A stretch of 64,000 nucleotides of DNA from Candidatus Allofournierella merdavium (GTDB lineage: Bacteria; Bacillota; Clostridia; Oscillospirales; Ruminococcaceae), in contig DWYI01000049.1 of NCBI GenBank assembly GCA_019118765.1, forward strand, positions 17,059 to 81,058, given 5' to 3'. The notes beneath the pieces are model-generated. The model was given only the letters and a program-made list of their open reading frames with translations. It searched no databases and was not told the DNA's origin. This document shows, one piece after another, positions 8,885 to 25,631 of the stretch. Each line of letters begins with the position of its first letter. The stretch's first letter is position 1. The position numbers and the translations under genes were made by a program.

Positions 8885-8916
8885 TTAAAACAGACACACA
8901 AGAAAGGGAGAAAAAC

Positions 8917-10993: not shown

Positions 10994-11916
10994 TCGGAGC
11001 CACCAGCTTTTCCGGCAGGTACATGTGCGAATTCCTGCAAAGTAAGGGCGAGGAATTTGTGGGCACGGCCCTGGACCTGCAAGAGGAACCGGCGGATAAA
11101 ACCGTCGGCCGGCTGATAGAGATGGACCTGTTGGACCTGCCCACCCTTGTGCAGGTGTTGAAAGAGGTCCGGCCGGCGTATATCTTTAACTTCGCCGCGC
11201 AGAGCTCGGTGGACTTGGCCTGGAAGAACCCGGGCATGACCGTCGAGGTGAATGTGAACGGGGCGCTGAACCTGTTCCAGGCGATCCGGCAGGCGCAGAT
11301 CGACCCCACGGTGGTACTGATCGGCGCGGGGGAGGAATACGGCAGGGTGGATTTTCAACAGCTGCCCACCTCCGAGGCCCAGCGCCTGGCGCCGGGGAAC
11401 ATCTACGCGGCAACCAAGGCCTGCCAGACGATGATGGCCCAGATCTACCACAAGGCCTATGGCCTAAAGCTGATCGTGGCCAGGACCTTCAACATCATAG
11501 GCCCGGGCCAGTCGGATCACTTCGCCGTGTCCAACTTCTGCCATCAGGCCGCGCTCATCGAAAAGGGTGCGGCGGAGCCGGTGCTCCATGTGGGCAATAT
11601 GAACATCGAGCGGGATTTCACCGACATCCGGGATGTGGTTCGCGCCTATTGGATGCTGGCGGAAAAAGGCATGCCTGGCGAAGTGTATAACGTGGGGCGC
11701 GGTGAGGCAATGGCGATCCGCGTGATCGTGGAGCAGATTCGCAAACAGCTCGGGGCCCGGTTTTCACTGCAGGTGGATCGGGATCGGATGCGGCCAATCG
11801 ATACGCCGAAGATCCAGAGTTCTATTCAAAAGATACACGAAGATGTAGGTTGGGAGCCGGCGATCCCTATGGAAAAAACCGTGCAGGACATGCTGAATTA
11901 CTGGAGAGCGAAATGA
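10978..11916 (+). CDS. GDP-4-keto-6-deoxy-D-mannose reductase family (Rmd / Tld-like SDR), copy 2
   Basis: Start ATG 10978 overlaps the end of copy 1. YAATK, FNIIGPGQ and VGNMNIERDFTDIRDVV motifs. Clear paralogue of the preceding gene. Confidence 0.8.
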   Translation: MRSLIIGATSFSGRYMCEFLQSKGEEFVGTALDLQEEPADKTVGRLIEMDLLDLPTLVQVLKEVRPAYIFNFAAQSSVDLAWKNPGMTVEVNVNGALNLFQAIRQAQIDPTVVLIGAGEEYGRVDFQQLPTSEAQRLAPGNIYAATKACQTMMAQIYHKAYGLKLIVARTFNIIGPGQSDHFAVSNFCHQAALIEKGAAEPVLHVGNMNIERDFTDIRDVVRAYWMLAEKGMPGEVYNVGRGEAMAIRVIVEQIRKQLGARFSLQVDRDRMRPIDTPKIQSSIQKIHEDVGWEPAIPMEKTVQDMLNYWRAK

Positions 11917-12725
11917 AACATACACAACCGGCGCACAACGGTGCGAAACGGAGCAATACCTGGTATCTGTTCTCGTTTTTGGTGAAGAACGACATCAAGC
12001 AGAGATACCAGGGGTCGGTGCTGGGCATCCTTTGGTCCATTATTGTCCCACTGATCATGCTTGCTGTTTATACCTTCATTTTCAGCGAGGTGTTTAGCGC
12101 CAAGTGGAACGTAGATACCGACAACAAGTTTGAGTTCGCACTTATGCTGTTTTGCGGTTTGAATCTTTATACCATGTTCAGCGACGTGTTGAGCAGATCG
12201 GTGGGTTTGATCCAGCAAAATCAGAACTATGTGAAAAAGGTCGTGTTCCCGCTGGAGATCCTGCCGGGGGTGATCACCTTTTCGGCGCTGTTCAACTGCC
12301 TGATCGGTTTTGGCGTGCTGATTTTGGCCAACACGGCCTTGAATCATGTAATGTATGTCACAATGATCGAAGCGCCGCTTGTGCTTGTGCCACACATTGT
12401 GTTCTGCTGCGGGATCGCGTTCCTGTTTTCCGCGTTGTCTGTCTATGTAAGAGACCTGGCAAATTTCATCAGCGTTCTCATCACGATCCTCATGTATATG
12501 AGCCCGGTGTTTTTTCCCCTTTCGGCCGTGCCGGAGCGATTCCGCGCATTTATGATGTTTAACCCGATGACTTATACCATCGAGAACATGAGAAATGTTG
12601 TCCTGTACGGAAATCACATCGAGCCAGGCTATTATGCGATCTCCTTTGGAACGGCGCTGATTGCTTTTCTGCTGGGATATTGGGTTTTTCATCGGGCAAA
12701 GAGCGGATTTGCCGATCTGCTCTGA
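11913..12725 (+). CDS. wzm: ABC-2-type polysaccharide export permease
   Basis: ATG 11913 overlaps the upstream stop (ATGA). Six-TM ABC-2 pattern beginning LVKNDIKQRYQGSVLGILWSI. Confidence 0.9.
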   Translation: MKHTQPAHNGAKRSNTWYLFSFLVKNDIKQRYQGSVLGILWSIIVPLIMLAVYTFIFSEVFSAKWNVDTDNKFEFALMLFCGLNLYTMFSDVLSRSVGLIQQNQNYVKKVVFPLEILPGVITFSALFNCLIGFGVLILANTALNHVMYVTMIEAPLVLVPHIVFCCGIAFLFSALSVYVRDLANFISVLITILMYMSPVFFPLSAVPERFRAFMMFNPMTYTIENMRNVVLYGNHIEPGYYAISFGTALIAFLLGYWVFHRAKSGFADLL

Positions 12726-12740
12726 AAAAAGGAGCGAGCA

Positions 12741-14138
12741 ATGCAGCAGATCAGAGCAGAAGACAACAGCAAGTTGGCGGTCAAGGTCGCAAATCTTTCC
12801 AAGGCGTATCAGGTGATCCATTCCCCTTGGGGAAGATTCAAATACTATGTGTTCGGTCGGGAGTGCGGCGAAAAGTTCTACGCTCTGCGGGATGTGAATT
12901 TCACGGTGAACAAGGGCGAGACTTTTGGGATCATCGGTACCAACGGAAGCGGCAAGAGCACCCTTTTGCAGATCATCTCCGGCATCATCCCTGCAACGGA
13001 TGGACAGGTGCAGGTGAGCGGAAAGGTTTCCGCCCTGCTGGAACTGGGCAGCGGTTTCAACCCGGAGAGCACCGGGTATGAGAATATTTTTTTGAATGCT
13101 GCCATTCTGGGGGTCGCCAAGAGCGAGATCGAAAAAAAATGCCAGGATATCATTGCGTTTGCTGACATCGGTGATTTTATCCATGAACCGGTGAAGACCT
13201 ATTCCAGCGGTATGTTCATTCGCTTGGCGTTTGCCGTGGCCATCAACGTGGAGGCGGACGTGATCATCATCGACGAAGCGCTGGCGGTGGGGGATATCTT
13301 TTTCCGCCAGAAGTGCTACGCGAAGCTGAATGAACTGAAAAAGCAGGGCAAGACCATCATCCTTGTATCCCATGGCATGAATGAGGTGGAACAATTCTGT
13401 GATCGGGCGTTGCTTTTGAGTCATGGCAAACAGATCATGCTGGGTGACAGCAACAATGTGGTGCAGGAATATTACATGCTCAATCAGGAGGAGAATGAAA
13501 GCACTCCTCATGAGGAAGAAGATTTCCCATCGGAAGAACCGGCTGTGGAAGTGACGTACGATGCTTCTTTTTTTCAGGAACACTGGCGGCCGCTGGATGC
13601 AACTTTTTTTGACTTGAGCAAATCCATGGAACACAGTAACGGGATGGCCCATTACACAAAGGTCGGCCTGTTTGATGAGCGGGGCTTTGCCAAGCGGCTT
13701 TTCAAACAGGGAGAAAACGCCTACTTTTATGTGGAACTGCAAGCGGATAAGGACATTCCCGCAGTGCCGATCAATGGGGTGGTTCTGGTCAATCAGAGAA
13801 GTATCATTGTGCATGGAAAAAACACATTTCAGACTGATTGCAAGCTTCCCCGCATGGTGAAAAAGGGGCAGATCATAAAGAACTGTTATAAAATAAAGCT
13901 AGACTTGGAAGAGGGTGAATACACCTTCGAAGTCGGCTTTTCCTGCCTGCCGGAAAAGGCGTATAGCAACAGAGAAAAAATCCCCCACGAGGAATTGAAT
14001 GAGCAACTGTTGACCATCGCATCCCGGCGGGCGGTGGGCGCATTCGCCATTCAGGGGAAAGAAAAGCCAAGCCCTTCGGCACTAAAATTCTACGGCCTGG
14101 TGGATCTGCCGGATGAATGTGAGACAAAACAGGAGTGA
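12741..14138 (+). CDS. wzt: polysaccharide export ABC ATPase with an extra C-terminal (Wzt_C-like) domain
   Basis: Walker A GTNGSGKST, signature YSSGM, Walker B IIIIDEAL. A further ~215 aa follow the nucleotide-binding domain, as in Wzt proteins that bind capped glycans. Confidence 0.85.
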   Translation: MQQIRAEDNSKLAVKVANLSKAYQVIHSPWGRFKYYVFGRECGEKFYALRDVNFTVNKGETFGIIGTNGSGKSTLLQIISGIIPATDGQVQVSGKVSALLELGSGFNPESTGYENIFLNAAILGVAKSEIEKKCQDIIAFADIGDFIHEPVKTYSSGMFIRLAFAVAINVEADVIIIDEALAVGDIFFRQKCYAKLNELKKQGKTIILVSHGMNEVEQFCDRALLLSHGKQIMLGDSNNVVQEYYMLNQEENESTPHEEEDFPSEEPAVEVTYDASFFQEHWRPLDATFFDLSKSMEHSNGMAHYTKVGLFDERGFAKRLFKQGENAYFYVELQADKDIPAVPINGVVLVNQRSIIVHGKNTFQTDCKLPRMVKKGQIIKNCYKIKLDLEEGEYTFEVGFSCLPEKAYSNREKIPHEELNEQLLTIASRRAVGAFAIQGKEKPSPSALKFYGLVDLPDECETKQE

Positions 14139-14244
14139 TCTGGTGCCACATTGCAGTGTTTGACCGAAGAGCGTGATGTGGGAGCAAACAAAAAGTTCAA
14201 AACGCCGCAATCCGGGATTGCCTGGCGAAAGGAGAGCATTAACA

Positions 14245-15186
14245 ATGGAAAAAGACGCGAAGATCTATGTGGCCGGCCATCACGGTATGGTGGGTTCGGC
14301 GATCGTTCGTGAACTGCAGCGGCAGGGATACTCCAACATCGTTACAAGATCGCACAAGGAGCTTGATCTGTGCCGGCAGGAACAGGTGGAAGCTTTCTTC
14401 GAGCAGGAAAAGCCCCAGTACGTTTTCCTGGCTGCCGCGAAGGTGGGCGGCATTGTTGCAAACCAGGAAGCGCTGGCCGATTTCATGTATGAAAACATGA
14501 TCCTGGAGATGAACGTGATCCATGCCGCCTGGCAGAACGGCTGCAAAAAGCTGCAGTTTCTGGGGTCGTCCTGTATTTATCCCAAATTCGCGCCGCAGCC
14601 GATGAAGGAAAGCTGTCTGCTAACTTCCGCCCTGGAGCCGACAAACGAAGCCTACGCACTGGCGAAGATCTCCGGCCTCAAATACTGTGAGTATCTGAAC
14701 CGACAGTATGGAACAGACTATATTTCTGTCATGCCTACGAATTTGTATGGCCCGAATGACAACTATCATCCCACCCATAGCCATGTCCTTCCGGCGCTGA
14801 TTCGCAGGTTTCATGAAGCGAAGGTGGCCAATCTGCCTTCTGTTACCTGTTGGGGCGACGGCAGTCCGCTTCGGGAGTTTCTGTATGTGGATGATCTGGC
14901 AAACCTGTGTGTGTTTTTGATGAACAATTACAGTGGGAACGAAACAGTGAACGCGGGCACGGGTAAAGAGATATCCATCAAGGAACTGACTGAGTTGACC
15001 GCAAAAATTATTGGCTATACCGGCGATATCCTCTGGGACACTTCCAAGCCGAATGGAACGCCGCGCAAGTTGTTGGATGTATCCAAAAGCCGCGCACTGG
15101 GATGGAACTACAAGGTGGAATTGGAAGAGGGAATCAGGCGCACCTATCAAGACTTCCTGACAAACCCCATGCGCGCAGAGCGCTGA
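14245..15186 (+). CDS. fcl: GDP-L-fucose synthase (GDP-4-keto-6-deoxymannose 3,5-epimerase/4-reductase)
   Basis: [38 protein letters not shown] and NLYGPNDNY motifs typical of Fcl/WcaG. Track ORF trimmed to ATG 14245. Confidence 0.9.
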
Positions 15187-15252
15187 ATTGCGGTCGGGGG
15201 TAACACAGAACGAGGAATTTGAAAATTTGTACGATTAGGAGACATCAGAAAG

Positions 15253-16776
15253 ATGCGGATTGCGATTGATATGACTCCTGTGGTGGCAGGCGGTGCGAAC
15301 GGAGGCGTTCTGCCGCTCACGATCGAGACCATCAAGGGATTCAGACAATGGGAAAACACAGATGTTGTGTTGCTAACGTCCAGCACAAACCACGATCTGC
15401 TGTGCGACCTGGACAAATATGGCTGTAAGAGATTTTGCCTTACAGGCGAAGGCGGCCAGGTCATGCCGCTTGTATCACGCGACGCACCTTTGCCTGCCCC
15501 CTTAACCGCACAAGCACCGGTTTTGCCCATGCGGAGGGAGATGGCGCAGCGGCTGAAACGGAAGGCCAAGCAAGCGATAAAGCAGTATGCACCTTCTTGG
15601 TTCCTGCGCTTTGCAAAACGACACAAAGGCGGGATCAAAAAGATATTCTGGCGCTGTGTCCATCCGGTCAAGGGGCTTTTAAAGCCGTTGGCGCGATTTG
15701 TCATGCCTCATGGGGTGTATGTTCTGTACTCCACACGATGCGCTGAACGTGTGGCAGTCCAAACACAGATCGCGGCATCTGCCGCGGCTGCTTCAAAAGT
15801 GCGTGCTGAACCACAGTATGATGTTGATCGTTGTAACTTATCCGCTTTGATTGGGGAAAAGGTCGATGTTTTGTACTGCCCTTTTTCGGCGGTGAATTTT
15901 TACGATCCGCAAGTCGCGACAGTATCGGTGATCAATGATATACAACATGTATATTATCCGTTCTTTTTTGCGCCGCAGGAATTGGAAGCGCGGAAAGATT
16001 TCTATGACAAGCTGCTCCGGGTCCACCCCCAAATCGTGACCATTTCCGACTTTACCAAAAAAACGATCGTAGAAACGTATGGCTGTGCGGCAGAAACGGT
16101 CCAGACGATTTATCCATCCGTACAAAAGCGCCTTTCGGCTTTTACTGAAGAGGAAAAACAAGCGGCATTCCAGAAGTTTGGATTCAATAAACAGGGGTAT
16201 ATCATTTACCCGGCAAATTTCTGGAAACATAAGAATCATCCGATTTTGCTCACGGCCTTCCGAATGTACCTGGAAACCCACAGAGAATCGCCTCTCCAGC
16301 TTGTACTTACCGGATCCGCTGTGGATCAGGCAGAGGCGATGAAAACGCTGATTGATGGAAGCGGACTGGCCGACCGAGTACACCATTTGGGATATGTTGA
16401 GAACGTGGAACTGGCGGCTCTGATCTCAAACAGCAAATACCTCATTTTCCCCAGTTTGTTTGAAGGGTTTGGCATCCCGGTGGCGGAAGCGATGCAATTG
16501 GGGACCACAGTACTGTGTTCCAATTCAACTTCACTTCCCGAAGTTGGCGGCGACTGCGCATTTTACTTTGATCCGCGCACCCCGGAAAGCATTTTGAACT
16601 GTATGGAATTTGTGGATGAAAATCCTGCCGAAGTCAAAAAGAAGAAAGAGCGCTATCAAGAGCAACTCTCCAAATTTGATTTCGATGTATATATGGAAAA
16701 ATATAGAAAGCTCTTTGAATTATTGTGCAAGGAGAAACAGCCCGATGAAGCTATCAATTGTAACGCCCTCCTATAA
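15253..16776 (+). CDS. GT4 glycosyltransferase with an enlarged, basic N-terminal half
   Basis: C-terminal IFPSLFEGFGIPVAEAMQLGTTVLCSNSTSLPEV motif. The N-terminal domain carries a ~130-aa Pro/Ala- and Lys/Arg-rich insertion. Confidence 0.8.
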   Translation: MRIAIDMTPVVAGGANGGVLPLTIETIKGFRQWENTDVVLLTSSTNHDLLCDLDKYGCKRFCLTGEGGQVMPLVSRDAPLPAPLTAQAPVLPMRREMAQRLKRKAKQAIKQYAPSWFLRFAKRHKGGIKKIFWRCVHPVKGLLKPLARFVMPHGVYVLYSTRCAERVAVQTQIAASAAAASKVRAEPQYDVDRCNLSALIGEKVDVLYCPFSAVNFYDPQVATVSVINDIQHVYYPFFFAPQELEARKDFYDKLLRVHPQIVTISDFTKKTIVETYGCAAETVQTIYPSVQKRLSAFTEEEKQAAFQKFGFNKQGYIIYPANFWKHKNHPILLTAFRMYLETHRESPLQLVLTGSAVDQAEAMKTLIDGSGLADRVHHLGYVENVELAALISNSKYLIFPSLFEGFGIPVAEAMQLGTTVLCSNSTSLPEVGGDCAFYFDPRTPESILNCMEFVDENPAEVKKKKERYQEQLSKFDFDVYMEKYRKLFELLCKEKQPDEAINCNALL

Positions 16777-18760
16777 TCAGGGAGAATTTATCAAGGCGAC
16801 TATCGACAGCGTGCTGGGCCAGGGATACCCTGACCTGGAATATCTCGTTATGGATGGGGGAAGCACAGACTCCACGGTCTCCATTCTCAAGTCATATGGA
16901 GATAAAATCATCTGGGTCAGCGAGCCGGATGGCGGGCAGGCTGCCGCGGTAAACAAGGGGATTCTTGCGTCCACGGGAGACATCATCGGTTGGATCAACT
17001 CGGACGATATCTATTATCCGGGAACTTTCGAAACAGTAATGAAGGCGTTTGAGCAGCACCCGGAAGTAAATGTGATCTATGGGCACGCCGACCACATCAC
17101 TAAGGACGGAGCATATCTGGAGGATTATTACACTGAAAAGTGGAATTATGAACGGCTCAAGGAGATATGCTACATCTGCCAGCCAGCGGTGTTTTTTCGC
17201 AAAAAGACAGTGATGGAATGCGGCCTGTTAAACCCCGATCGCCATTTTGCGATGGATTATGATCTGTGGTTGCGGATGGGGAAAAGCAACGACTTCTATT
17301 TCATCGATAAGAAGTTTGCTGGTTCCCGCCTGTACCAGGAGAATAAAACACTCGGTTTCCGTGACAAAGTCTGTTATGATATTCTGGACACCGTGAAAGA
17401 AGTGACCGGTTCTGTGCCGATGCGGTGGCTGGAGGCGGGTGCCCATATGCTCAACGAAGGATATGAGCACAACGACCCCATTCTCCGGGAACGGACAGAG
17501 TATATTTCCCGGCTCATTGCTTCGGGGATGGATCTGAGCCTTAAGTATACGGGCAGGTTGCCCGCGACAAGGGAGGAACTCCCTTTGCGGGAAGTCCCGA
17601 TCAGAATTGGATATGATGTGAGCATTACCTGTGATTCGGGTGCCGGAGTCAGCCAATACACGCAGGCTTTGGCCGAAGGACTGTGCAGCATTGACCGGGT
17701 GAATCAGTATCTGTTTTATCCCTTGTTTAAAAACAGATACAGCGGAAACTATAAACAGTGTAAGATCCCCGCAAAGTCTCCGAATGCACAGATGATGTTT
17801 CGAAATAAATACCCGGTTGAGTATTATCAGTCGTTGTTTGATGCCCCTGGGCAGGATATCACGGAAGTATTGGGAACGCCGAATGTTGTCCATCACACTG
17901 GATTTTGCTATACAGATCAGCACAACGCGGCGAATGTTTATACTCTGTTTGATATGTCTTTCTTTGACTATCCCGATTGCACAACGGAAGCAAACAGAGT
18001 GTATTGTTATGAGGCGATGCAGCGCGCGGTCCTCAGCGCGGATGTGTTTGTGTCCATCTCCGAATACACAAAGCAGCGTTTCCTTCACTATTTTCCTTAT
18101 GTGGATGCAGATAAAATCAAGGTCGTTCCCCTTGCATGCCGGAAAACGCTGAAGGTGCCGGCCAATCCCGATCAGTGCCTGAAGGATATGGGGATCACGC
18201 CGGGAACGCCGTTCTGGCTGAGCGTGAACACCATCGAACCCCGTAAAAATATCAAAACATTGCTGAGAGCCTACAAAAAGCTGCGGGACAAGGGCGCGAC
18301 GTATCCTTTGTATCTTGCGGGTGGTCGCGGGTGGAAAAATCAAGCGATCTACGAAGAAGTGAAAGTCCTTGGGATCGAAGAATCTGTCCGCTTTTTGGGA
18401 TTTGTGGATGACAGGCACCTTTCGGCGCTGTATGCGTCTTGTTTCTGCTTTTTGTATCCTTCCGTGGATGAGGGCTTCGGCCTGCCGGTCCTGGAGTCGA
18501 TGACCTTGGGTGGTCCTGTCATCTGCAGCAATGTGGCAAGTCTCCCTGAGGTGGCGGGTCAGGCTGCGCTGTATGTGGATCCCGCAAATGTGGATACCAT
18601 AGTTGCTGCGATGGAAAAGGTTTCCAAGGACGAATCGCTGCGGCAGACGCTGATTCAACAGGGGAAGGAAAAAGCTGAGGACTTCTCTTGGGAGAAGACG
18701 GCTGAAAAAACGCTGATGAGCTATTACGAGGCGATTTGGCGACACAAACAAAACAAGTAA
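16745..18760 (+). CDS. two-domain glycosyltransferase (N-terminal GT2, C-terminal GT4)
   Basis: Track ORF trimmed to ATG 16745. N-terminus LSIVTPSYNQGEFIKATIDSVLGQGYPDLEYLVMDGGSTD (GT2). C-terminus EPRKNIKTLL and FLYPSVDEGFGLPVLESMTLGGPVICSNVASLPEV (GT4). Confidence 0.85.
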   Translation: MKLSIVTPSYNQGEFIKATIDSVLGQGYPDLEYLVMDGGSTDSTVSILKSYGDKIIWVSEPDGGQAAAVNKGILASTGDIIGWINSDDIYYPGTFETVMKAFEQHPEVNVIYGHADHITKDGAYLEDYYTEKWNYERLKEICYICQPAVFFRKKTVMECGLLNPDRHFAMDYDLWLRMGKSNDFYFIDKKFAGSRLYQENKTLGFRDKVCYDILDTVKEVTGSVPMRWLEAGAHMLNEGYEHNDPILRERTEYISRLIASGMDLSLKYTGRLPATREELPLREVPIRIGYDVSITCDSGAGVSQYTQALAEGLCSIDRVNQYLFYPLFKNRYSGNYKQCKIPAKSPNAQMMFRNKYPVEYYQSLFDAPGQDITEVLGTPNVVHHTGFCYTDQHNAANVYTLFDMSFFDYPDCTTEANRVYCYEAMQRAVLSADVFVSISEYTKQRFLHYFPYVDADKIKVVPLACRKTLKVPANPDQCLKDMGITPGTPFWLSVNTIEPRKNIKTLLRAYKKLRDKGATYPLYLAGGRGWKNQAIYEEVKVLGIEESVRFLGFVDDRHLSALYASCFCFLYPSVDEGFGLPVLESMTLGGPVICSNVASLPEVAGQAALYVDPANVDTIVAAMEKVSKDESLRQTLIQQGKEKAEDFSWEKTAEKTLMSYYEAIWRHKQNK

Positions 18761-18787
18761 TAAACTTTTACATGAGAGGACAAACAG

Positions 18788-20107
18788 ATGAAACGTTGCT
18801 GGTGCGGAAATGAGGCGTTGGAGGAGTACTCCTCCCAATATCGTGTTTGTACGAAGTGCCACACATTGGTTACCAAGTATGACGTGAACGACTCTCTGTA
18901 TAAAGTCTCGGATGAAGAGTCTGATTTTTACGGCGAGAATTATTGGGCAAAAGGGATGCTTGAGCTATCTGGACTGCCCAGCCTCAGTGCGCTGGTGGAC
19001 GCATACCTGCGTGGGCGCGTACCGTACTGGACGGAAAATGTTTTGAAATATGCAAAGCTTGGAGGATGTGTTGCGGAGGTCGGTTGCGGACTGGGTCAAT
19101 TGCAGTATGTGCTGAAAAGAATAGGATATCAACAGCTGGCCTATGAACTCAGCCCGGACATCTGCCGGTATATGGAGGATACCTTGGGTGTCTCTGCGCA
19201 CTGTGGCTCTTTTGAAAGAAGCGATAAACCATACGATGCCATCTTGGCGTTTGATTTGTTTGAACACCTGTTGGAGCCAGAGGAGTTTCTTTCAGCATGT
19301 GCCGATTCTCTGCAAACCGATGGTGTTTTGATGATGCAGACACCGTGCTATGATGCGGCGCTCAGCTATGATGAGATGCTGATTCAAAAGCCGCGCTTCA
19401 AGGAGCTTTTAAGGCCCGAACAACACTTGTACCTTTTCAGCCGCGAATCCATTGCTGAGATCCTTCACAAACACGGCTTTGTGAACGTCGTCTTCGAGCC
19501 GGCGTATTTCGGTGATGATTACGATATGTTCTTCGTGGCGTCCAAGGGTGAACTCTGCCAGAATACCAAGGACGAGATCGATGAGTATCTGAACCGGCAA
19601 GAGAACGGCCGCCTTGTCAAGGCAATGATCGCTTTGCAGGATGAAAACCGGGAGTGGGAGAAGAGGTATTTACAGGCGGATCGAGATCGGGAAGAGCGGC
19701 TGCACAATATGCAAAAACTGGAAGAACTGCTGCGGGTGAATGAAGCTGACCGTGAAGACAGGCTGAAACAGGCACAAACTCTGGAGCGGCGCCTGGAAGA
19801 AAGCGAGGCGGACCGGGCGGCACGGCTGGAGCAGGTGAAGATTTTGGAGCAGCGCCTGGAAAAAAGTGAGAGGGACCGGGCGGCACGGCTGGAGCAGATG
19901 AAGATTTTGGAGCGGCACCTGGAAGAAAGCGAGACGGATCGTGCGGCACGGCTGGAGCAGATGAAGATTTTGGAGCGGCGCCTGGAAGAAAGCGAGGCGG
20001 ATCGTGCGGCACGGCTGGAGCAGATGAAGATTCTGGAGCGGCGCCTGGAGGAAAGCGAAGCGGATCGGGCGGCAAGAAAAGGATGCAATACTGGAAATCC
20101 ATCTTAA
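18788..20107 (+). CDS. class I SAM-dependent methyltransferase fused to a C-terminal repeat coiled coil (candidate chain terminator / ruler)
   Basis: N-terminal CWCG..CTKCH knuckle. Methyltransferase motif I VAEVGCGLGQL, with ILAFDLFEHL and DGVLMMQTP. From about residue 285 a charged heptad-compatible helix ends in tandem LEESEADRAARLEQMKILERR units. Confidence 0.75.
   Translation: MKRCWCGNEALEEYSSQYRVCTKCHTLVTKYDVNDSLYKVSDEESDFYGENYWAKGMLELSGLPSLSALVDAYLRGRVPYWTENVLKYAKLGGCVAEVGCGLGQLQYVLKRIGYQQLAYELSPDICRYMEDTLGVSAHCGSFERSDKPYDAILAFDLFEHLLEPEEFLSACADSLQTDGVLMMQTPCYDAALSYDEMLIQKPRFKELLRPEQHLYLFSRESIAEILHKHGFVNVVFEPAYFGDDYDMFFVASKGELCQNTKDEIDEYLNRQENGRLVKAMIALQDENREWEKRYLQADRDREERLHNMQKLEELLRVNEADREDRLKQAQTLERRLEESEADRAARLEQVKILEQRLEKSERDRAARLEQMKILERHLEESETDRAARLEQMKILERRLEESEADRAARLEQMKILERRLEESEADRAARKGCNTGNPS
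19793..20074 (+). repeat. in-frame tandem repeat: four 63-bp units plus one 30-bp partial unit
   Basis: Units start at 19793, 19856, 19919 and 19982, with a partial unit at 20045. By manual alignment units 3 and 4 differ at 2 of 63 positions. More diverged 21-aa units lie upstream. Confidence 0.95.
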
Positions 20108-20260: not shown

Positions 20261-22465
20261 ATGTTTGAACTGACGCAAATTCTTTACTATATTGGATGTA
20301 CGCTTGGGACGCTCTTGATTGGAAGTCCCGCGGTTCTTCTGTTGCACCGTGATGGGGCCAAGATTTTTCATCCGAAGTCATGGTTCATGGGAACAACAAT
20401 TATAATGTTGCTTTGTTACTGGATGAGTATGTTCGGAATTCCGATGAAGCAGGCATGGCTGATTGTCGCTGCGCTGTCTTTGATTGTGTGGATTATAGTT
20501 TGGAAGCGCAGGCTCAAGGGAAAAGATTCTTTGTTTGTTGAAAAACAAACAAGGGGTTTGTTGGTGCTTTGTTTTATTGCCGGATCGCTGGCGCTTATAC
20601 CCATGATTGTGTTTAAAGCGTGTTTCCTGTACGGTGATATGTATACCTATGTAAGCATTGCTGATTACCTGCTCCAACATGGCTATGGAAGCACAGTCTC
20701 ATTGGATCCATATTCACCATGGCTGTCACAAGTTTTGCTGTATCAAAGTCATGGGTTTCGGATGGGAGCACAATTTTTCCTCTCGTTTTGGACAGCGGCT
20801 CTGCAGCAAGAGTTTTCCGTTTTTGTTTACTCGCCGGCATCGGCCTTTGGAATCAGCTTGTATGGCATGGCCGTGTGGGAATTTACACAGTCGGTTTGGA
20901 AACTTAGTCCGCGACGGGTAGCCTATGCGGTGATCTTTTCGGCGTTTAATATTCCGTTTGTGATTTGGAGCGCCGTATATGGCTTCTTCCCTCAATTGCT
21001 GGGGCTTGCGTTTTTCATAATGGCTCTCGGAACAGTGGTAAAACTGCTTGTTCACCATCAGAAGTTTTCCGTGTTGGACTATGTAGAGGGTAGCTTGTGG
21101 ATTGCCTCCATGGCGTTTTGCTATAGTGAAGTTGTGCCGTTCTTTGTGGTTTTTACTTCTGTTCTGTATTTTACACAGAACAGGAGTAAAAAGGCGTTTT
21201 TGCAGGGGTTTAAATCATTGGCACTGATTGCGGTATTTAGCCTGACCGTATTGGGAAAGTATGCCATTGAAATGTTTGGTTCAATCATTACAATGATGGG
21301 AGCTGCGGTAGGCTGGGAGCAACGATTGAACTGGATAGGATATCTGGCTTGTTGGTTCTCTTCCGCGCCAGTGCAGTATAACTTTGTTGATGCCCAATAT
21401 CCATTAGTACCACATACTGTGTTTGTCACAGCTACGATTATTATGCTGGCACTGCTGGTATATGGACTGTGCGTTCACAAAAGTGATTCAAAAACAAAGC
21501 ATCTGACAATAGGTGCAATCCTTGCAATCCCATTGCTTCTCTTCCTGGTTTACTTTGGTAATATAGCAGAAAATCCGTTTGGCAATGGGTATGGGAACTC
21601 GTGGTCAGTGTTTAAGTTGGCGCAATACGCATTCCCTGTTATAGGCTGCTTTCTGTTTCCTTACTTTGCGGATGTTTTTCAAGGAGGCGGCCTGATAAAG
21701 CGTAGCCTTTCGATTGCGTTTCCCAGCGTCTTTTGCGTAGTGGGGTTGATGCATGCCGTTCTCTATTCCGATAGCGTTACCGAATCAATGAGAAAATATA
21801 CAAACTACGCGGAAAATCCCATTATGGCTTATATAGACATAGCAAAGCATTATGAGGGTGAAACAAGAGTCCTCAACTTACTTGGTTTTGATGAACATCA
21901 AAGTGAGAGAAAAATCCTTACCTACTTTTTGCGCGGAAATAAACTTGCCTCTGACTGGAGCAGCGACGGGTATTTTTCTCTTTACAAAAATAAAGATCCG
22001 GAGATTGTATCGGACGGCTTGTTTTTGATTTATGACCCCAAGGCAACGGAGCCGATGTTAAAACTCACAGAAATGACAGCGGAGAACTGTGTCTTGATGG
22101 AGGAAAACTATGGCGTCGGCGGTACAGAAAATTCTGCCGAGAATGTGAGTTGGACATGGAATGAATCTGAAAGCCAGTACGCAGTCACAAATTATTCAGT
22201 GAAAGAATCTGTCCTTTTGTCGGCGGAACTGGCAAATGCAAGCGCGATTCCTGGCGCTAGTGTGGATGTATACCTGAACGACCAGCTCATTCAAACCGTG
22301 GAACTTATCCCTGCACAGCGCATACCTTTTTCTGCCAATCTGAAGATCCCATCCGGGACTACTACCTTGGTGAAATTTGTGTACCATGGCGAATCGGTTC
22401 AGGAGCCGGGCGGCCAGCGGACTTTGAATTTGGGCATTTGGAACATCGCTTGCACTGTTTCTTGA
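20261..22465 (+). CDS. large polytopic membrane protein with a C-terminal soluble domain (GT-C-like glycosyltransferase or oligosaccharyl/ligase-type enzyme; family not resolved)
   Basis: 734 aa with many hydrophobic helices over the first ~500 aa. An early loop carries GDMYTYVSIADY. The ~230-aa hydrophilic C-terminal part is beta-rich in appearance. RBS gaggag. AT-rich codon usage. Confidence 0.55.
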   Translation: MFELTQILYYIGCTLGTLLIGSPAVLLLHRDGAKIFHPKSWFMGTTIIMLLCYWMSMFGIPMKQAWLIVAALSLIVWIIVWKRRLKGKDSLFVEKQTRGLLVLCFIAGSLALIPMIVFKACFLYGDMYTYVSIADYLLQHGYGSTVSLDPYSPWLSQVLLYQSHGFRMGAQFFLSFWTAALQQEFSVFVYSPASAFGISLYGMAVWEFTQSVWKLSPRRVAYAVIFSAFNIPFVIWSAVYGFFPQLLGLAFFIMALGTVVKLLVHHQKFSVLDYVEGSLWIASMAFCYSEVVPFFVVFTSVLYFTQNRSKKAFLQGFKSLALIAVFSLTVLGKYAIEMFGSIITMMGAAVGWEQRLNWIGYLACWFSSAPVQYNFVDAQYPLVPHTVFVTATIIMLALLVYGLCVHKSDSKTKHLTIGAILAIPLLLFLVYFGNIAENPFGNGYGNSWSVFKLAQYAFPVIGCFLFPYFADVFQGGGLIKRSLSIAFPSVFCVVGLMHAVLYSDSVTESMRKYTNYAENPIMAYIDIAKHYEGETRVLNLLGFDEHQSERKILTYFLRGNKLASDWSSDGYFSLYKNKDPEIVSDGLFLIYDPKATEPMLKLTEMTAENCVLMEENYGVGGTENSAENVSWTWNESESQYAVTNYSVKESVLLSAELANASAIPGASVDVYLNDQLIQTVELIPAQRIPFSANLKIPSGTTTLVKFVYHGESVQEPGGQRTLNLGIWNIACTVS

Positions 22466-22829: not shown

Positions 22830-23612
22830 ATGAAAGCAGTTATTCTTGCGGGTGGTTTTGGCACCCGAATTTCAGAGGAAAGCCAATTTAAACCCAAGCC
22901 CATGGTGGAATTGGGAGGCATGCCGATCCTGTGGCACATCATGAAGCTGTATGGCCATTATGGCATCAACGAGTTTGTGATTTGCGCCGGTTACAAACAA
23001 CATGTGATTAAAGAGTATTTTGCCGATTATTTCCTGCATACTTCGGATATCACCTATGACTTTACCCATGGCAGAAATGAGATGATTGTGCATTACAACA
23101 CCTCGGAGCCTTGGAAAGTTACGGTGGTGGACACCGGCCTTAACACCATGACCGGCGGCCGGGTGAAGAGGATCCGCGACTATATGGACAATGAGCCCTT
23201 CATGTTGACCTACGGCGACGGCGTGGCCAACATTAATATCCAGGAGCTGCTGGATTTCCACCGCGCCCATGGCAAGATGGTTACCATATCCGCTTATAAC
23301 GCAGGCCAGCGGTTTGGTGTGCTGGACATCGATGGACAGGGCCGGATTACTGAATTCCGGGAAAAAACGCAGGGCGACGGCAACATGATCAATATTGGTT
23401 ATATGGTGTGCCAACCGGAATTCATTGATTACATCCAGAATGACAGCACCGTGCTGGAAAAGGAGCCCCTGGAGCGAGTTGCAAAGGAAGGCCAGCTGAT
23501 GGCCTACAAACACACTGGGTTCTGGCAGTGCATGGATACAATGCGAGAAAAGGAACAGCTGGAAAAAATGTGGGCGGCCGGACGTGCCCCTTGGAAAGTG
23601 TGGGAAGACTGA
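22830..23612 (+). CDS. rfbF: glucose-1-phosphate cytidylyltransferase
   Basis: MKAVILAGGFGTRISEES..KPKPMVELGGMPILWHIMK..YGHYGINEFVICAGYK is characteristic of RfbF/DdhA. Confidence 0.93.
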   Translation: MKAVILAGGFGTRISEESQFKPKPMVELGGMPILWHIMKLYGHYGINEFVICAGYKQHVIKEYFADYFLHTSDITYDFTHGRNEMIVHYNTSEPWKVTVVDTGLNTMTGGRVKRIRDYMDNEPFMLTYGDGVANINIQELLDFHRAHGKMVTISAYNAGQRFGVLDIDGQGRITEFREKTQGDGNMINIGYMVCQPEFIDYIQNDSTVLEKEPLERVAKEGQLMAYKHTGFWQCMDTMREKEQLEKMWAAGRAPWKVWED

Positions 23613-24682
23613 TGGATTATTTGAATCTGGAGTTTTATCAGGGGAAAAAGATCTTTGTGACCGGGCATACTGGCTTCAAAGGCACCTGGCTGTGCCATAT
23701 GTTGGCGCTTGCCGGCGCGCAGATCACTGGCTATTCGCTCCCTGCGCCCACGCAGCCCAATCTGTTTGAGCTTTCCGGCCTGGAAAGCAAAATGACCTCG
23801 GTCATTGGCGACGTGCGGGATCGCGAAAAGCTGATGGAGATTTTTCGCAAGGCACAGCCGGAGATCGTTTTGCATCTGGCGGCGCAGCCCATCGTGCGCG
23901 ACAGCTACAAGGATCCGGCCTTTACTTACGAGACCAACGTGATGGGCACGGTCAATCTGTTGGAGTGCGTGCGCAGCGCACAGGTACCTGTGCGCTCGGT
24001 GGTGAACGTCACCACCGATAAGGTCTATCTGAACCGGGAATGGTGTTGGGGCTACCGGGAGGACGAGATGCTGGATGGCTACGACCCCTACTCCAATTCT
24101 AAATCCTGTTCGGAATTGGTGACCCACAGCTATTGCCACAGCTTTTTCAACACCGAGGATGCGCCGGCCGTCTCAACGGCGCGGGCGGGCAATGTGATTG
24201 GCGGCGGCGACTTTGCGAATGACCGCATTATTCCCGACTGTGTGCGCGCTGCTGTGTCGGGGCAGACCATCGCCGTGCGCAATCCCTATTCCACTCGTCC
24301 TTACCAGCATGTGCTGGAACCCCTGTTTGCCTACCTGATGATTGCACGCATGCAGTATGAGGACAAGCGTTATGCCGGCTGGTATAATGTGGGCCCGGAC
24401 GATTGCGACTGTGTCACTACAGGTGAATTGACAGATTTGTTCTGCGAAGAGTGGGGCGCACCAGCTTGCTGGCAAACGCAGGCAGAGCAAAACGCACCGC
24501 ACGAGGCAAATTTTTTGAAACTTGACTGCACAAAACTGAAATCTACGTTTGGCTGGAAACCTCGCTGGCACATCCGAGAGGCGGTCGCCCAAACTGTTGC
24601 ATGGAGCAAGGTTTGGTGTGCTGGCGGGAGTATTCCAGACGAAATGGACCGAGAGATTAAAACATTCCAAAAGGAAGACTAA
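23612..24682 (+). CDS. rfbG: CDP-glucose 4,6-dehydratase
   Basis: Start overlaps the rfbF stop. KKIFVTGHTGFKGTWL, PYSNSKSCSE and RAGNVIGGGD motifs typical of RfbG/DdhB. Confidence 0.9.
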   Translation: MDYLNLEFYQGKKIFVTGHTGFKGTWLCHMLALAGAQITGYSLPAPTQPNLFELSGLESKMTSVIGDVRDREKLMEIFRKAQPEIVLHLAAQPIVRDSYKDPAFTYETNVMGTVNLLECVRSAQVPVRSVVNVTTDKVYLNREWCWGYREDEMLDGYDPYSNSKSCSELVTHSYCHSFFNTEDAPAVSTARAGNVIGGGDFANDRIIPDCVRAAVSGQTIAVRNPYSTRPYQHVLEPLFAYLMIARMQYEDKRYAGWYNVGPDDCDCVTTGELTDLFCEEWGAPACWQTQAEQNAPHEANFLKLDCTKLKSTFGWKPRWHIREAVAQTVAWSKVWCAGGSIPDEMDREIKTFQKED

Positions 24683-24694
24683 GGGGATCGTTCG

Positions 24695-25627
24695 ATGAAA
24701 AAATTGATAACCGTTGTGGTGCCAACATTTAATGAGGAACTCAACGTGGAAAACGTGTGGCAGCGAGTTACGAATATTATGAACAAGCAACTGCCACAAT
24801 ACGATTATGAGATTTTGTATGTAGATAACTGCTCGTTGGATAGGACGCAGGAAATCATTTCCGCCTTGGCAGAAAAAGACAGTCACGTTAAGGCCATTTT
24901 CAATGCACGGAACTTCGGGTATGTAAAGAACGTATACTACGCGATAACGCAGGCGAAAGGTGACTGCGCATTCCTGCTCCATGCAGACTTGCAGAATCCC
25001 CCTGAAATGCTGGTGGAGTTTGTCCAATATTGGGAGGAAGGCTATAAGGTCATTGCGGGCGTGAAGAAAAGCAGCAAAGAAAACAAATTGCTGTTTGCCG
25101 CAAAAGGAATGTACTATCACCTGATGAAGAAAATTTCCGATTCGGAGATGATCGAGCAGTTAACAGACTTTGGCCTCTATGATCGGAAATTCCTGGATGT
25201 GTTAAAGAATCTGGATGATACTTTACCCTATTTTAAGGGAATCGTTTCAGAGCTTGGCTTTGACCTGAAGATAGTCGAGTTTGACCAGAATGACCGGGAA
25301 AAAGGGAAATCATTTACCAACTTTTTCAAAAGCTATGACTACGCAATGCTGGGCATCACAACATATACCAAGCTGATCCGCGCTGCAAGCTGGGCTGGTT
25401 TGCTTTTGGGGATCTTGTGTGTTGTAATCGCTGTCATCACATTCGTGCTGAAATTACTCAACTGGGCTTCCTTCCCCACAGGTGTAGCGGCAATTTGCAT
25501 AGGCGTGTTTTTCATTGGAGCAATCCAGCTGTTCTTCCTGGGGCTGCTGGGCGAATATGTGATCTGTATCAACACAAGGCTTCTGCGGCGGCCGCTGGTA
25601 ATTGAAGAAAAGAGGATTCATTATTGA
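24695..25627 (+). CDS. GT2 polyprenyl-phosphate glycosyltransferase (GtrB/CsbB/ArnC-like)
   Basis: N-terminal VVVPTFNEE GT2 fold, plus two C-terminal TM helices and a LGEYV..RRP tail, as in GtrB/DPM1-like lipid-carrier glycosyltransferases. Confidence 0.8.
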   Translation: MKKLITVVVPTFNEELNVENVWQRVTNIMNKQLPQYDYEILYVDNCSLDRTQEIISALAEKDSHVKAIFNARNFGYVKNVYYAITQAKGDCAFLLHADLQNPPEMLVEFVQYWEEGYKVIAGVKKSSKENKLLFAAKGMYYHLMKKISDSEMIEQLTDFGLYDRKFLDVLKNLDDTLPYFKGIVSELGFDLKIVEFDQNDREKGKSFTNFFKSYDYAMLGITTYTKLIRAASWAGLLLGILCVVIAVITFVLKLLNWASFPTGVAAICIGVFFIGAIQLFFLGLLGEYVICINTRLLRRPLVIEEKRIHY

Positions 25628-25631
25628 AATC

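What the first reader, a model, noticed from the sequence alone, without database searches (positions are those of the whole stretch)
19793..20074. Near-identical in-frame 63-bp tandem units: a possible copy-number switch for glycan chain length, and an assembly hazard
Seen:
- Head-to-tail 63-bp units start at 19793, 19856, 19919 and 19982, with a 30-bp partial unit at 20045.
- By manual alignment units 3 and 4 differ at only 2 of 63 positions. Units 1 and 2 differ from them at about 5-6 positions.
- Older, diverged 21-aa units continue upstream to about 19670.
- The unit length is a multiple of three, so gain or loss keeps the frame.

Inference:
- The gradient of identity suggests recent expansion at the 3' end.
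- Recombination or slippage between units would lengthen or shorten the putative ruler. That would give heritable, reversible variation of surface-glycan length, a form of phase or antigenic variation not based on on/off switching.
- Short-read assemblies could also have collapsed the true copy number.
Basis: partly seen in the sequence, partly recalled or inferred. Interest (0 to 1): 0.6.

Follow-up and report, generated by a model that had tools for sequence, protein, structure and literature searches.

The report
Variable-length stalk of glycan-capping methyltransferase
A real in-frame 63-bp tandem array encodes the long helical stalk of a probable sugar-chain-capping methyltransferase in a chicken-gut Clostridia bacterium; nearly identical strains carry different numbers of units, which fits an adjustable "ruler" for surface-glycan length, but fast switching is not shown.

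Summary
Four 63-bp units start at 19793, 19856, 19919 and 19982, followed by a truncated fifth. It is the only tandem repeat in the window. The array lies in ORF 18788..20107 (439 aa): a zinc ribbon, a SAM methyltransferase, then one predicted 157-residue helix (about 23 nm). One unit is 21 aa, or three heptads.

The gene sits in an ABC-transporter glycan locus with wzm, a wzt carrying a cap-binding module, and polymerase-type glycosyltransferases. That is the architecture of WbdD-type terminators, whose coiled coil is a proven chain-length ruler. There is no detectable sequence homology to WbdD, and the window allele lacks a C-terminal membrane anchor.

Public assemblies hold alleles of 376, 381, 402, 418 and 439 aa whose stalks differ in exact 21-aa steps. 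One pair has 0 differences in 19.8 kb of flank but differs by two units.

The window's clone shows the same array in all 13 contigs and in unitigs from four studies, so fast reversible switching is unproven. Collapse is unlikely, because the longest exact repeat is 37 nt.

New here: the array is also a recombination boundary, and the "partial unit" is a truncated terminal unit. Homogenised 63-bp arrays occur in this family across several phyla.

The parts
18788..20107 (+). Gene for a 439-aa protein: zinc ribbon, SAM methyltransferase and a long repeat-built helical stalk. Putative glycan chain terminator.
   Evidence: ORF. Pfam Methyltransf_23 at residues 81-234, E=3e-19. AlphaFold2 model with mean pLDDT 88.6. 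The exact protein is found on 13 public contigs.
18797..18862 (+). N-terminal four-cysteine zinc-ribbon-like element (C4, C6, C21, C24).
   Evidence: All four cysteines are invariant in a 44-sequence family alignment. The model has beta strands at residues 11-29. The best structural matches are zinc-domain sugar methyltransferases TcaB9, KijD1 and MtmC.
19028..19489 (+). Class I SAM-dependent methyltransferase domain (residues 81-234), with the glycine-rich SAM loop AEVGCGLGQ.
   Evidence: Pfam PF13489, PF08241 and PF08242. E97, G99 and G103 are invariant in the family.
19607..20077 (+). One continuous predicted alpha-helix, residues 274-430 (157 aa, about 23 nm): the stalk.
   Evidence: DSSP on the AlphaFold2 model gives H274-430; pLDDT falls from about 95 to about 66 along it. 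Hydrophobic periodicity is strongest at 3.5 residues.
19667..19792 (+). Two older, diverged 63-bp (21-aa) units.
   Evidence: They differ from the core units at 33-34 and 23-27 of 63 positions.
19793..20044 (+). Four full, near-identical 63-bp units (LEESEADRAARLEQMKILERR type), each 21 aa or three heptads.
   Evidence: Pairwise differences are 2-8 of 63. TRF score 467. Heptad a positions fall on unit residues 1, 8 and 15, and d positions on 4, 11 and 18.
20045..20077 (+). Truncated terminal unit (11 codons, ending in an AGA arginine codon). It lies at the edge of the near-identical flank shared with L008, not in the divergent block.
   Evidence: It differs at 1 of 33 positions from the same unit in L008, whereas the block upstream is only 74-91% identical. 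The AGA codon is shared with the terminal unit of the canonical allele in L005.
20078..20107 (+). Novel 9-codon tail (KGCNTGNPS) plus stop. It replaces the conserved 14-aa end L(E/K)QIxxLNxMLxxR of relatives.
   Evidence: Protein comparison. No significant DNA similarity to canonical tails. Disordered in the model, pLDDT below 50 at residues 425-437.
11850..12725 (+). wzm, the ABC-2 permease of the glycan exporter.
   Evidence: PF01061, E=1.7e-22.
12741..14138 (+). wzt, the ATPase with a C-terminal carbohydrate-binding (cap-reading) module.
   Evidence: PF00005 plus PF14524 Wzt_C at residues 297-401, E=1.4e-13. Its nucleotide-binding domain (residues 13-248) gives the best PDB hits, to 'ABC transporter' entries 8dku and 7k2t, at E=5e-74.
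14173..15186 (+). GDP-L-fucose synthase-like gene inside the transport-polymerisation-termination block.
   Evidence: NCBIfam NF047922, E=1e-144, 481.7 bits against a cut-off of 500.
15253..16776 (+). GT4 glycosyltransferase (507 aa), a candidate polymerase component.
   Evidence: PF00534. Co-located with the methyltransferase gene in most relatives.
16745..18760 (+). Two-module GT2-GT4 glycosyltransferase (671 aa as called in public contigs), a candidate polymerase.
   Evidence: PF00535 plus PF00534. Conserved next to the methyltransferase gene across phyla.
20261..22465 (+). 734-aa protein with strongly hydrophobic stretches in its sequence, matching no known family. It is the first gene downstream, in sequence near-identical to L008, and is one of two alternative downstream cassettes.
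   Evidence: No Pfam or NCBIfam hit. Alleles with the canonical tail have GtrA, three large proteins and two GT2 genes here instead.

Best explanation
The array encodes most of a rigid alpha-helical, probably coiled-coil, stalk. The stalk carries a SAM-dependent methyltransferase head in an ABC-transporter-dependent surface-glycan pathway of a chicken-gut Clostridia bacterium.

Proposed mechanism, by analogy with WbdD-type terminators:
- The head caps the non-reducing end of the growing lipid-linked glycan once the chain is long enough to reach it.
- The cap is read by the carbohydrate-binding module of Wzt, and the chain is exported.
- Each 63-bp unit adds 21 residues, or three heptads (about 3.1 nm).
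- Unequal recombination between units therefore changes stalk length in quantal steps while keeping both the reading frame and the heptad register.
- Natural alleles span about 14 to 23 nm of stalk, which should shift modal glycan length.

The same repeats also serve as a homology patch where locus modules are reshuffled between strains.

Shown: the array, the domain architecture, the gene context, the allele ladder and the recombination boundaries.
Inferred: terminator activity, the oligomeric coiled coil, and any effect of stalk length on glycan length.
For: - The array is real and in frame.
- The protein has a methyltransferase domain followed by a single 157-residue helix, with 3.5-residue hydrophobic periodicity and 21 aa equal to three heptads.
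- The locus has wzm, a wzt with a Wzt_C carbohydrate-binding module, and GT4 and GT2-GT4 glycosyltransferases.
- Of the 20 loci found among GTDB species-representative genomes, from several phyla, 16 carry wzm and/or wzt beside the methyltransferase-stalk gene and 18 carry GT4/GT2-GT4 homologues. The usual order is wzm, wzt, methyltransferase-stalk, GT4, GT2-GT4. This matches the P. syringae transport-elongation-termination operon (PMC7820976).
- The literature describes the extended coiled coil as a marker of terminators, and as a proven ruler in E. coli O9a WbdD and K. pneumoniae O12 WbbB. Insertions or truncations shift modal length, and the WbdD stalk is about 20 nm (PMC11231755; PMC5082667).
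- Alleles of 376, 381, 402, 418 and 439 aa differ in exact 21-aa steps once the two tail types are separated.
- L008 (418 aa) and L009 (376 aa) have 0 differences in 10.8 kb upstream and 9.0 kb downstream. Their arrays differ by two units, a hybrid unit head and one substitution.
- Other lineages show pairs differing by exactly 21 aa at 93-96% identity.
- Arrays of 63 or 126 bp with 80-94% DNA match occur in 11 of 16 representative species tested, including Gastranaerophilales, Caballeronia and Methylococcaceae.
- The divergent allelic block between otherwise 99-100% identical genomes runs from the start of wzt to the array. The cap reader, the polymerase genes and the terminator are therefore inherited together.
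Against: - There is no sequence similarity to WbdD. The best structural matches are nucleotide-sugar C-methyltransferases.
- Only about 44% of predicted a/d core positions are strongly hydrophobic, and the unit is very rich in charged residues. The stalk could be a single stable helix, or a non-canonical bundle, rather than a classic coiled coil.
- The window allele ends nine polar residues after the helix. It has no amphipathic membrane anchor and lacks the family's conserved terminal half-unit. How the base of the ruler is fixed near the polymerase is unknown.
- The 21-aa motif (SEADRAARLEQI) is conserved across phyla, which is more than a passive spacer needs.
- No glycan structure, methyl cap or chain-length data exist for this organism.
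- The window clone's copy number is constant across all 13 contigs found.
Confidence: 0.55

Rival explanations
1. The stalk is only an oligomerisation or scaffolding domain. The copy-number ladder is then a neutral by-product of recombination in a repetitive sequence that tolerates length change, with no effect on glycan length.
For: The array sits at recombination boundaries, and all four combinations of upstream allele and downstream cassette exist, so length changes could simply be crossover scars. The window clone is constant across all 13 contigs found. No phenotype data exist.
Against: The 63-bp period and within-array homogenisation are kept in distant phyla. Changes are always whole heptad triplets. 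In the two tested systems of this architecture, stalk length does set chain length (PMC11231755, PMC5082667).
Confidence: 0.22
2. This is a true contingency switch. Unit gain and loss is frequent and reversible within clonal populations, and it produces subpopulations with different glycan lengths that are selected by phage or host immunity.
For: L008 and L009 have zero flank differences but differ by two units and in array substitutions. Array-specific k=31 unitigs are at about 0.4-0.8 of flank depth in runs X1, X2 and X3, though not in X6. Family-wide homogenisation shows that recombination is ongoing.
Against: The consensus array is identical on all 13 contigs carrying the protein, and the same array unitigs appear in runs from four studies. 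Unitig depths are internally inconsistent: in X9 the loop accounting fails, so short-unitig depth cannot be trusted here. No long read spans the array, since the nanopore run X20 had no real hits. Units 63 bp long with 2-8 mismatches recombine far more slowly than short homopolymer or tetranucleotide tracts (established knowledge).
Confidence: 0.12
3. The methyltransferase is not a terminator. It makes or modifies a methylated sugar, either on a nucleotide-sugar precursor or on internal residues of the polymer, and the helix merely tethers it to the assembly complex.
For: The top Foldseek matches are the sugar C-3 methyltransferases KijD1, TcaB9 and MtmC, which share the N-terminal zinc domain. 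There is no WbdD sequence similarity.
Against: The C-terminal domain of the TcaB9 class has no Pfam match here, and the model shows a continuous helix in its place. The gene is usually placed directly after wzm-wzt, and here co-varies with a Wzt that carries a carbohydrate-binding module. That pattern is the signature of cap-dependent export (PMC11231755, PMC7820976).
Confidence: 0.1
4. The array, or its copy number, is an assembly artefact.
For: k=31 unitig graphs break inside the array in every run examined. The L008 allele contains a 99-nt exact repeat, read directly from the sequence, which short k-mers could collapse.
Against: The longest exact repeat in the window array is 37 nt. The identical protein is on 13 contigs; the four shown are from four different ENA assemblies. 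The array units carry distinguishing substitutions. The shorter L009 array has a hybrid unit head and a substitution that cannot be built from L008-type reads. Unitig depths in the array are not above flank depth, as a collapse would require.
Confidence: 0.02

Closest known systems
WbdD of E. coli O9a/O8 (= K. pneumoniae O3/O5): chain-terminating methyltransferase(-kinase) with a coiled-coil molecular ruler
   Same: - N-terminal catalytic cap-adding head followed by a long helical stalk of similar size (about 23 nm here, about 20 nm in WbdD).
- Encoded with wzm and a wzt that carries a cap-binding module, plus separate polymerase glycosyltransferases.
- In WbdD, engineered insertions or deletions in the stalk shift modal chain length (PMC5082667, PMC11231755). 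The natural alleles here differ in just that way.
   Different: - No detectable sequence homology, and no kinase domain.
- An N-terminal zinc ribbon is present here.
- The stalk is built from homogenised 21-aa tandem repeats.
- The window allele has no C-terminal amphipathic membrane helix or polymerase-recruiting region.
- The host is apparently a Gram-positive-type Clostridia bacterium, so the product is not an LPS O antigen.
P. syringae TET (transport-elongation-termination) operon with a WbdD-like SAM methyltransferase (PMC7820976)
   Same: - A wzm, wzt, methyltransferase and GT4 module next to GDP-6-deoxyhexose genes.
- Divergent alleles of that module are exchanged by recombination within a species, as seen here between the window and L008.
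- The authors note variable chain-length ranges within clades.
   Different: - No repeat-number polymorphism of the terminator is mentioned in the passages of that paper read here.
- Whether the Pseudomonas protein belongs to this sequence family was not tested.
- Relatives in Caballeronia, Lysobacter, Methylococcaceae and Legionellaceae do belong to it.
WbbB (K. pneumoniae O12) and ORF6 (K. pneumoniae O7): terminator, coiled coil and polymerase in one polypeptide
   Same: A terminator module held away from the polymerase glycosyltransferase modules by a coiled coil that acts as the ruler (PMC11231755).
   Different: In those proteins the polymerase modules are fused C-terminal to the coil. 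Here the protein ends after the coil, and the GT4 and GT2-GT4 proteins are separate.
Repeat-built protein rulers such as YscP of the Yersinia injectisome (from my own knowledge, not checked here)
   Same: A length-determining protein whose own length, altered by duplication or deletion of internal repeats, sets the length of the product.
   Different: A secreted, largely extended ruler for a protein needle, not an enzyme stalk for a polysaccharide.

Membership tests
WbdD-type terminator with coiled-coil ruler (ABC-transporter-dependent glycan assembly) | Cap-adding catalytic domain (methyltransferase and/or kinase, or Kdo transferase) at the end of the protein distal to the polymerase | tested here: met
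   PF13489 at residues 81-234 with an intact SAM loop. The domain is N-terminal to the stalk.
WbdD-type terminator with coiled-coil ruler (ABC-transporter-dependent glycan assembly) | Extended coiled coil after the catalytic domain | tested here: inconclusive
   A single 157-residue helix is predicted. Periodicity is 3.5 residues, but only 44% of a/d positions are strongly hydrophobic. Oligomeric state cannot be tested with these tools.
WbdD-type terminator with coiled-coil ruler (ABC-transporter-dependent glycan assembly) | Encoded with wzm and a wzt that carries a C-terminal carbohydrate-binding module reading the cap | tested here: met
   PF01061 and PF00005+PF14524 lie about 5 kb upstream. 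wzm and/or wzt lie beside the gene in 16 of 20 relatives. wzt and the methyltransferase belong to one co-inherited allelic block.
WbdD-type terminator with coiled-coil ruler (ABC-transporter-dependent glycan assembly) | C-terminal membrane-associating amphipathic helix and polymerase-recruitment region at the base of the coil | tested here: not met
   The window protein ends nine polar, disordered residues after the helix. Some proteobacterial relatives have basic, Trp/Leu-rich tails that look amphipathic by eye, for example RSWMWRLRRALPSVL.
WbdD-type terminator with coiled-coil ruler (ABC-transporter-dependent glycan assembly) | Sequence homology to WbdD | tested here: not met
   phmmer against the PDB finds only generic methyltransferases (3dli, 3cc8, 1ve3) at E of 2.5e-4 or weaker. 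No WbdD entry is named among the top 50 Foldseek matches.
WbdD-type terminator with coiled-coil ruler (ABC-transporter-dependent glycan assembly) | Stalk length determines modal glycan chain length; the glycan carries a terminal cap | not testable with these tools
   This needs glycan sizing and NMR or mass spectrometry on allele-swap strains.
Contingency (repeat-mediated phase or size variation) locus | Near-identical tandem repeats inside a surface-related gene, with unit number differing among very close relatives | tested here: met
   The 376-439 aa ladder. L008 and L009 have 0 differences in 19.8 kb of flank but differ by two units.
Contingency (repeat-mediated phase or size variation) locus | High-frequency, reversible change within a clonal population | tested here: inconclusive
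   The array is constant on all 13 contigs of the window clone. Unitig depths are noisy and internally inconsistent. No spanning long reads were found.
TcaB9/KijD1-type nucleotide-sugar C-methyltransferase | Zinc-binding N-terminal domain plus class I methyltransferase fold | tested here: met
   These are the top Foldseek matches, at E about 1e-13. Four cysteines are invariant.
TcaB9/KijD1-type nucleotide-sugar C-methyltransferase | C-terminal sugar-nucleotide-binding domain of that class | tested here: not met
   No such Pfam domain is found. Residues 274-430 form a single helix. TM-scores are only about 0.42.

The most novel reading that the evidence does not exclude
The stalk is an evolvable, register-preserving adjustable ruler. 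A 63-bp unit (three heptads) is kept homogenised by recombination in this methyltransferase family across several bacterial phyla, so that populations can retune surface-glycan length in about 3-nm quanta. That would be size variation rather than on/off phase variation. The same repeats would also act as portable crossover sites for reshuffling glycan-locus modules.
Probability: 0.15. Interest if true: 0.75.

Novelty: new variant of a known kind. Interest (0 to 1): 0.5.

Why it matters
Coiled-coil rulers that set polysaccharide length are established only from engineered mutants of a few enterobacterial enzymes. This locus provides a natural allelic series of the same kind of stalk: 3.5 to 6.5 units, including one pair of alleles with identical flanks. 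The series occurs in a gut commensal and in a sequence family unrelated to WbdD but widespread.

If stalk length maps onto glycan length, this would show that bacteria tune surface-glycan length by repeat recombination. That bears on phage and immune recognition of gut Clostridia, and it would offer a ready-made toolkit for engineering glycan length.

The mosaic structure also shows a practical point. Repeat arrays inside glycan genes can be the crossover points at which serotype-like modules are exchanged.

Tried and rejected
- **Read-level test of heterogeneity.** Of the 23 runs listed, 19 held part of the stretch, but all of those are kept only as k=31 unitigs that fragment in the array. 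Depth ratios suggested about 0.4-0.8 of flank depth for array-specific unitigs in X1, X2 and X3 but not in X6. The loop accounting in X9 is internally inconsistent, so I do not rely on these figures.
- **Long reads.** The only long-read run, X20 (nanopore), gave no real hits. A search for PacBio runs returned only very large genomic runs that share the label 'organism A', are not indexed for this stretch, and were not examined.
- **Decayed or frameshifted tail.** I tested whether the window's unusual tail is a decayed or frameshifted copy of the canonical tail. Local alignment scores (19 and 15) fall within the shuffled distribution (mean 17.5, sd 2.6), so no homology can be claimed. An LEIHLKLVK reading in another frame is not supported.
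- **First reading of the mosaic, corrected.** I first took the downstream cassette to be the horizontally transferred part. The sliding identity profile shows that, between the window and L008, the wzt-to-array block is the divergent segment instead.
- **Source species.** A first attempt with a 44-sequence alignment failed because it was too diverse.
- **Hagelueken et al. 2015.** The paper is not held. Its results are cited through PMC5082667 and PMC11231755.
- **Minus-strand ORFs over the array** (189, 161 and 233 aa). They were not searched. I read them as by-products of the repeat.
Full report
**1. The observation**

Tandem Repeats Finder reports one array at 19782..20074: period 63, 4.7 copies, 91% matches, no indels, score 467. 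It is the only array scoring at least 60 in the whole 64-kb window.

Units 3 and 4 differ at 2 positions. The two preceding units (19730, 19667) differ from the core units at 23-27 and 33-34 positions. The array is in frame with ORF 18788..20107.

One correction applies. The last, partial unit runs to the AGA codon at 20075-20077, so it is 33 nt. It is homologous to the terminal unit of related alleles rather than being an unfinished new copy.

**2. The protein**

The ORF encodes 439 aa. Pfam finds a class I SAM methyltransferase at residues 81-234 (PF13489, E=3e-19).

An AlphaFold2 model built on 44 family members (mean pLDDT 88.6) shows three parts:
- a small beta-ribbon at residues 11-29, carrying four cysteines that are invariant in the family;
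- the methyltransferase fold;
- one uninterrupted helix from residue 274 to 430, followed by nine disordered residues.

The helix is 157 residues, about 23 nm at 0.148 nm per residue.

The unit is LEESEADRAARLEQMKILERR. Hydrophobic periodicity peaks at 3.5 residues. In the best heptad frame, a positions fall on unit residues 1, 8 and 15 and d positions on 4, 11 and 18. Only about 44% of those positions are strongly hydrophobic.

Because 21 aa is three heptads, gaining or losing a unit preserves both the reading frame and the heptad register. Substitutions between units fall mostly outside the predicted core positions. The one at a core position is conservative (V/M at unit residue 15), and the change at residue 4 is synonymous (sequence read directly).

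**3. Gene context**

The gene lies in an ABC-transporter-dependent glycan locus:
- phosphomannomutase-type and initiating-transferase genes;
- several GT4 glycosyltransferases;
- GDP-mannose dehydratase and two related reductase-like genes;
- wzm (11850-12725);
- wzt with a Wzt_C carbohydrate-binding module (12741-14138);
- a GDP-L-fucose-synthase-like gene;
- a GT4 and a GT2-GT4 two-module glycosyltransferase;
- then the methyltransferase-stalk gene.

The nucleotide-binding domain of Wzt (residues 13-248) gives the best PDB hits, to 'ABC transporter' entries 8dku and 7k2t, at E=5e-74.

Twenty loci with relatives were found among GTDB species-representative genomes. They come from Lachnospiraceae, Eubacterium, Acetatifactor, Gastranaerophilales, Caballeronia, Methylococcaceae, Lysobacter, Legionellaceae and others. 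Sixteen carry wzm and/or wzt beside the gene, and 18 carry GT4/GT2-GT4 homologues. The usual order is wzm, wzt, methyltransferase-stalk, GT4, GT2-GT4.

This is the same modular logic as the transport-elongation-termination operon of Pseudomonas syringae (PMC7820976). It is also the logic of the WbdD, WbbB and ORF6 systems. In those systems an extended coiled coil is described as the characteristic marker of the terminator, and as a proven ruler of chain length (PMC11231755; PMC5082667).

**4. Copy number in relatives**

The exact 439-aa protein occurs on 13 public metagenome contigs. The source is chicken gut. Loci L001-L004 differ from the window by 0-2 bases in about 20 kb and carry the same array.

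The 90%-identity clusters around the protein hold members of 376, 381, 402, 418 and 439 aa. Once the two alternative C-terminal tails are separated, the stalks end at residues 367, 388, 409 and 430. That is a ladder of exact 21-aa steps. The tails are:
- the canonical tail, ...ADRAAR-L(E/K)QIxxLNxMLxxR, 14 aa;
- the window type, ...ADRAAR-KGCNTGNPS, 9 aa.

The sharpest case is L008 (418 aa) against L009 (376 aa), from two samples of one study. They have 0 differences in 10,800 bp upstream and 9,000 bp downstream, yet differ by two units. The L009 array carries a hybrid unit head and a substitution (CGC to TGC) that cannot be produced by collapsing L008-type reads. It is therefore a genuine second allele.

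In two further runs (X9, X15) the unitig graph keeps both window-type flanks but lacks every word specific for units 1-3. This indicates still shorter alleles, although the exact unit number cannot be read from k=31 unitigs.

Outside this species, pairs at 93-96% identity also differ by exactly 21 aa (P0013/P0023 and P0025/P0033). In-frame arrays of 63 or 126 bp with 80-94% DNA match are present in 11 of 16 representative species tested, including distant phyla. Those proteins are only 35-58% identical to each other. Each lineage therefore homogenises its own units, which is concerted evolution and means recombination within the array is ongoing across the family.

**5. Switch or stable alleles?**

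- The consensus array is identical on all 13 contigs that carry the window's protein. The same array unitigs appear in runs from four studies.
- Array-specific unitigs run at about 0.4-0.8 of flank depth in X1, X2 and X3, but not in X6.
- In X9 the depths do not satisfy the loop arithmetic of the graph, so short-unitig depths are unreliable here.
- No long read spans the array.

The data fit a change rate that is clearly higher than point substitution in the flanks (the L008/L009 pair). They also fit a rate too low to blur consensus assemblies.

**6. Assembly hazard**

The longest exact repeat within the window array is 37 nt. Assemblers using k of 39 or more, and reads of 100 nt, resolve it. 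Only the k=31 graphs break. Array depths are not above flank depth, which argues against a collapsed higher copy number. Other alleles are riskier: L008 has a 99-nt exact repeat (sequence).

**7. The array is a recombination boundary**

A sliding comparison of the window with L008 gives three zones:
- 99.2-100% identity at 8788-12787;
- 74-91% identity from 12788, the start of wzt, to the array;
- essentially 100% identity again from 20288 onward.

The truncated terminal unit differs at 1 of 33 positions, against about 86% identity for the preceding units.

One species therefore carries two divergent alleles of a block made of wzt with its binding module, the fucose-synthase-like gene, both polymerase-type glycosyltransferases, and the methyltransferase-stalk. 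The right edge of that block lies inside the array. That the cap reader and the putative capping enzyme are inherited together supports a functional link.

Against L005-L007 (402 aa), the window is 99.5-99.8% identical upstream, up to the middle of unit 2 (about 19896). After that it shares nothing. Those alleles keep the canonical tail. They are followed by a GtrA-like gene, three large proteins without family matches, and two GT2 genes, where the window has the 734-aa protein.

All four combinations of upstream allele and downstream cassette exist: the window, L005, L008 and L010. Crossovers in or at the array have therefore happened repeatedly.

The window-type tail begins abruptly after the AGA codon and has no detectable similarity to canonical tails. 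It removes the half-unit LEQIxxL(T/N)xx(L/I), which closes the stalk in most of the closer relatives listed.

**8. Mechanism and its weak points**

The best-supported reading is a WbdD-like terminator:
- A methyltransferase head is held about 14-23 nm, depending on allele, from whatever anchors the base of the stalk.
- The head caps chains that have grown long enough.
- The Wzt binding module then recognises the cap for export.

The domain architecture, gene context, allele ladder and boundaries are shown. Cap chemistry, oligomeric state and any length effect are inferred.

The weak points are these:
- There is no sequence relation to WbdD.
- The nearest structures are zinc-domain nucleotide-sugar C-methyltransferases.
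- The core of the helix is only half hydrophobic.
- The window allele has neither an amphipathic membrane helix nor the conserved terminal motif.
- The 21-aa motif is more conserved across phyla than a passive spacer requires. This hints at a specific packing or binding role.

I put the ruler reading at about 0.55, a neutral scaffold at about 0.22, a true high-frequency switch at about 0.12, a non-terminator methyltransferase at about 0.10, and an artefact at about 0.02.

**9. Novelty**

Coiled-coil terminators are a known and widespread kind (PMC11231755). One full-text search, for the combination of coiled-coil, tandem repeats, chain length, O-antigen, methyltransferase and copy number, found no description of a stalk built from homogenised 21-aa repeats, of a natural allelic ladder, or of the repeats acting as module boundaries. 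I file this as a new variant of a known kind, of moderate interest. It gains value because it offers a natural allelic series for testing the ruler model outside enterobacteria.

Noticed in passing
window 12788-20045, compared with L008: Two genomes that are 99.2-100% identical on both sides differ by 9-26% across a 7.3-kb block. The block runs from the start of wzt through the fucose-synthase-like gene, GT4 and GT2-GT4 to the methyltransferase array. These are two alleles of a transport-polymerisation-termination module within one species.
   Followed up: partly
window 20261-22465; L005 11308-19808; L010 8390-16922: There are two alternative cassettes downstream of the methyltransferase gene. 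One is a single 734-aa protein with strongly hydrophobic stretches and no family match. The other has a GtrA-like gene, three large unannotated proteins and two GT2 genes. They look like alternative glycan-decoration modules, possibly extracytoplasmic three-component systems as in PMC11127046, but this was not tested.
   Followed up: partly
window 24288-26287, compared with L008: A second, smaller divergent block (88-95% identity) covers the GT2 gene (24695-25627) and the UDP-galactopyranose mutase gene (25602-26822), inside otherwise 99.6-100% identical sequence.
   Followed up: no
window 28972-29454 (-); L001 20185-20526; L002 19281-20001: [quoted passage not shown] Gene calls differ between otherwise near-identical contigs (113 aa in L001, 160 aa plus an extra 83-aa ORF in L002), which suggests local rearrangement.
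   Followed up: no
window 8881-11916 and 14173-15186: GDP-mannose dehydratase, two related reductase or epimerase-like genes and a GDP-L-fucose-synthase-like gene (481.7 bits against a cut-off of 500) suggest a polymer of 6-deoxyhexoses, such as fucose with rhamnose or 6-deoxytalose. A separate CDP-sugar set follows at 22830-24682.
   Followed up: partly
window 18797-18862 (residues 4-24 of the methyltransferase): A four-cysteine zinc-ribbon-like N-terminus is invariant across the family. The whole head resembles the sugar C-methyltransferases TcaB9, KijD1 and MtmC more than any other solved structure.
   Followed up: partly
window 6510-7772: A 420-aa ORF inside the glycan locus has no family match, apart from a weak sub-threshold hit to a crAss-phage tail hub family (E=0.005).
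   Followed up: no
L008 3958-5379 against window 12741-14138: Wzt is 473 aa in the alternative allele and 465 aa in the window. The protein that carries the cap-binding module therefore differs in length between the two alleles, along with the terminator.
   Followed up: no
window 49357-49433: A single tRNA-Pro (GGG) gene is the only tRNA in the window.
   Followed up: no
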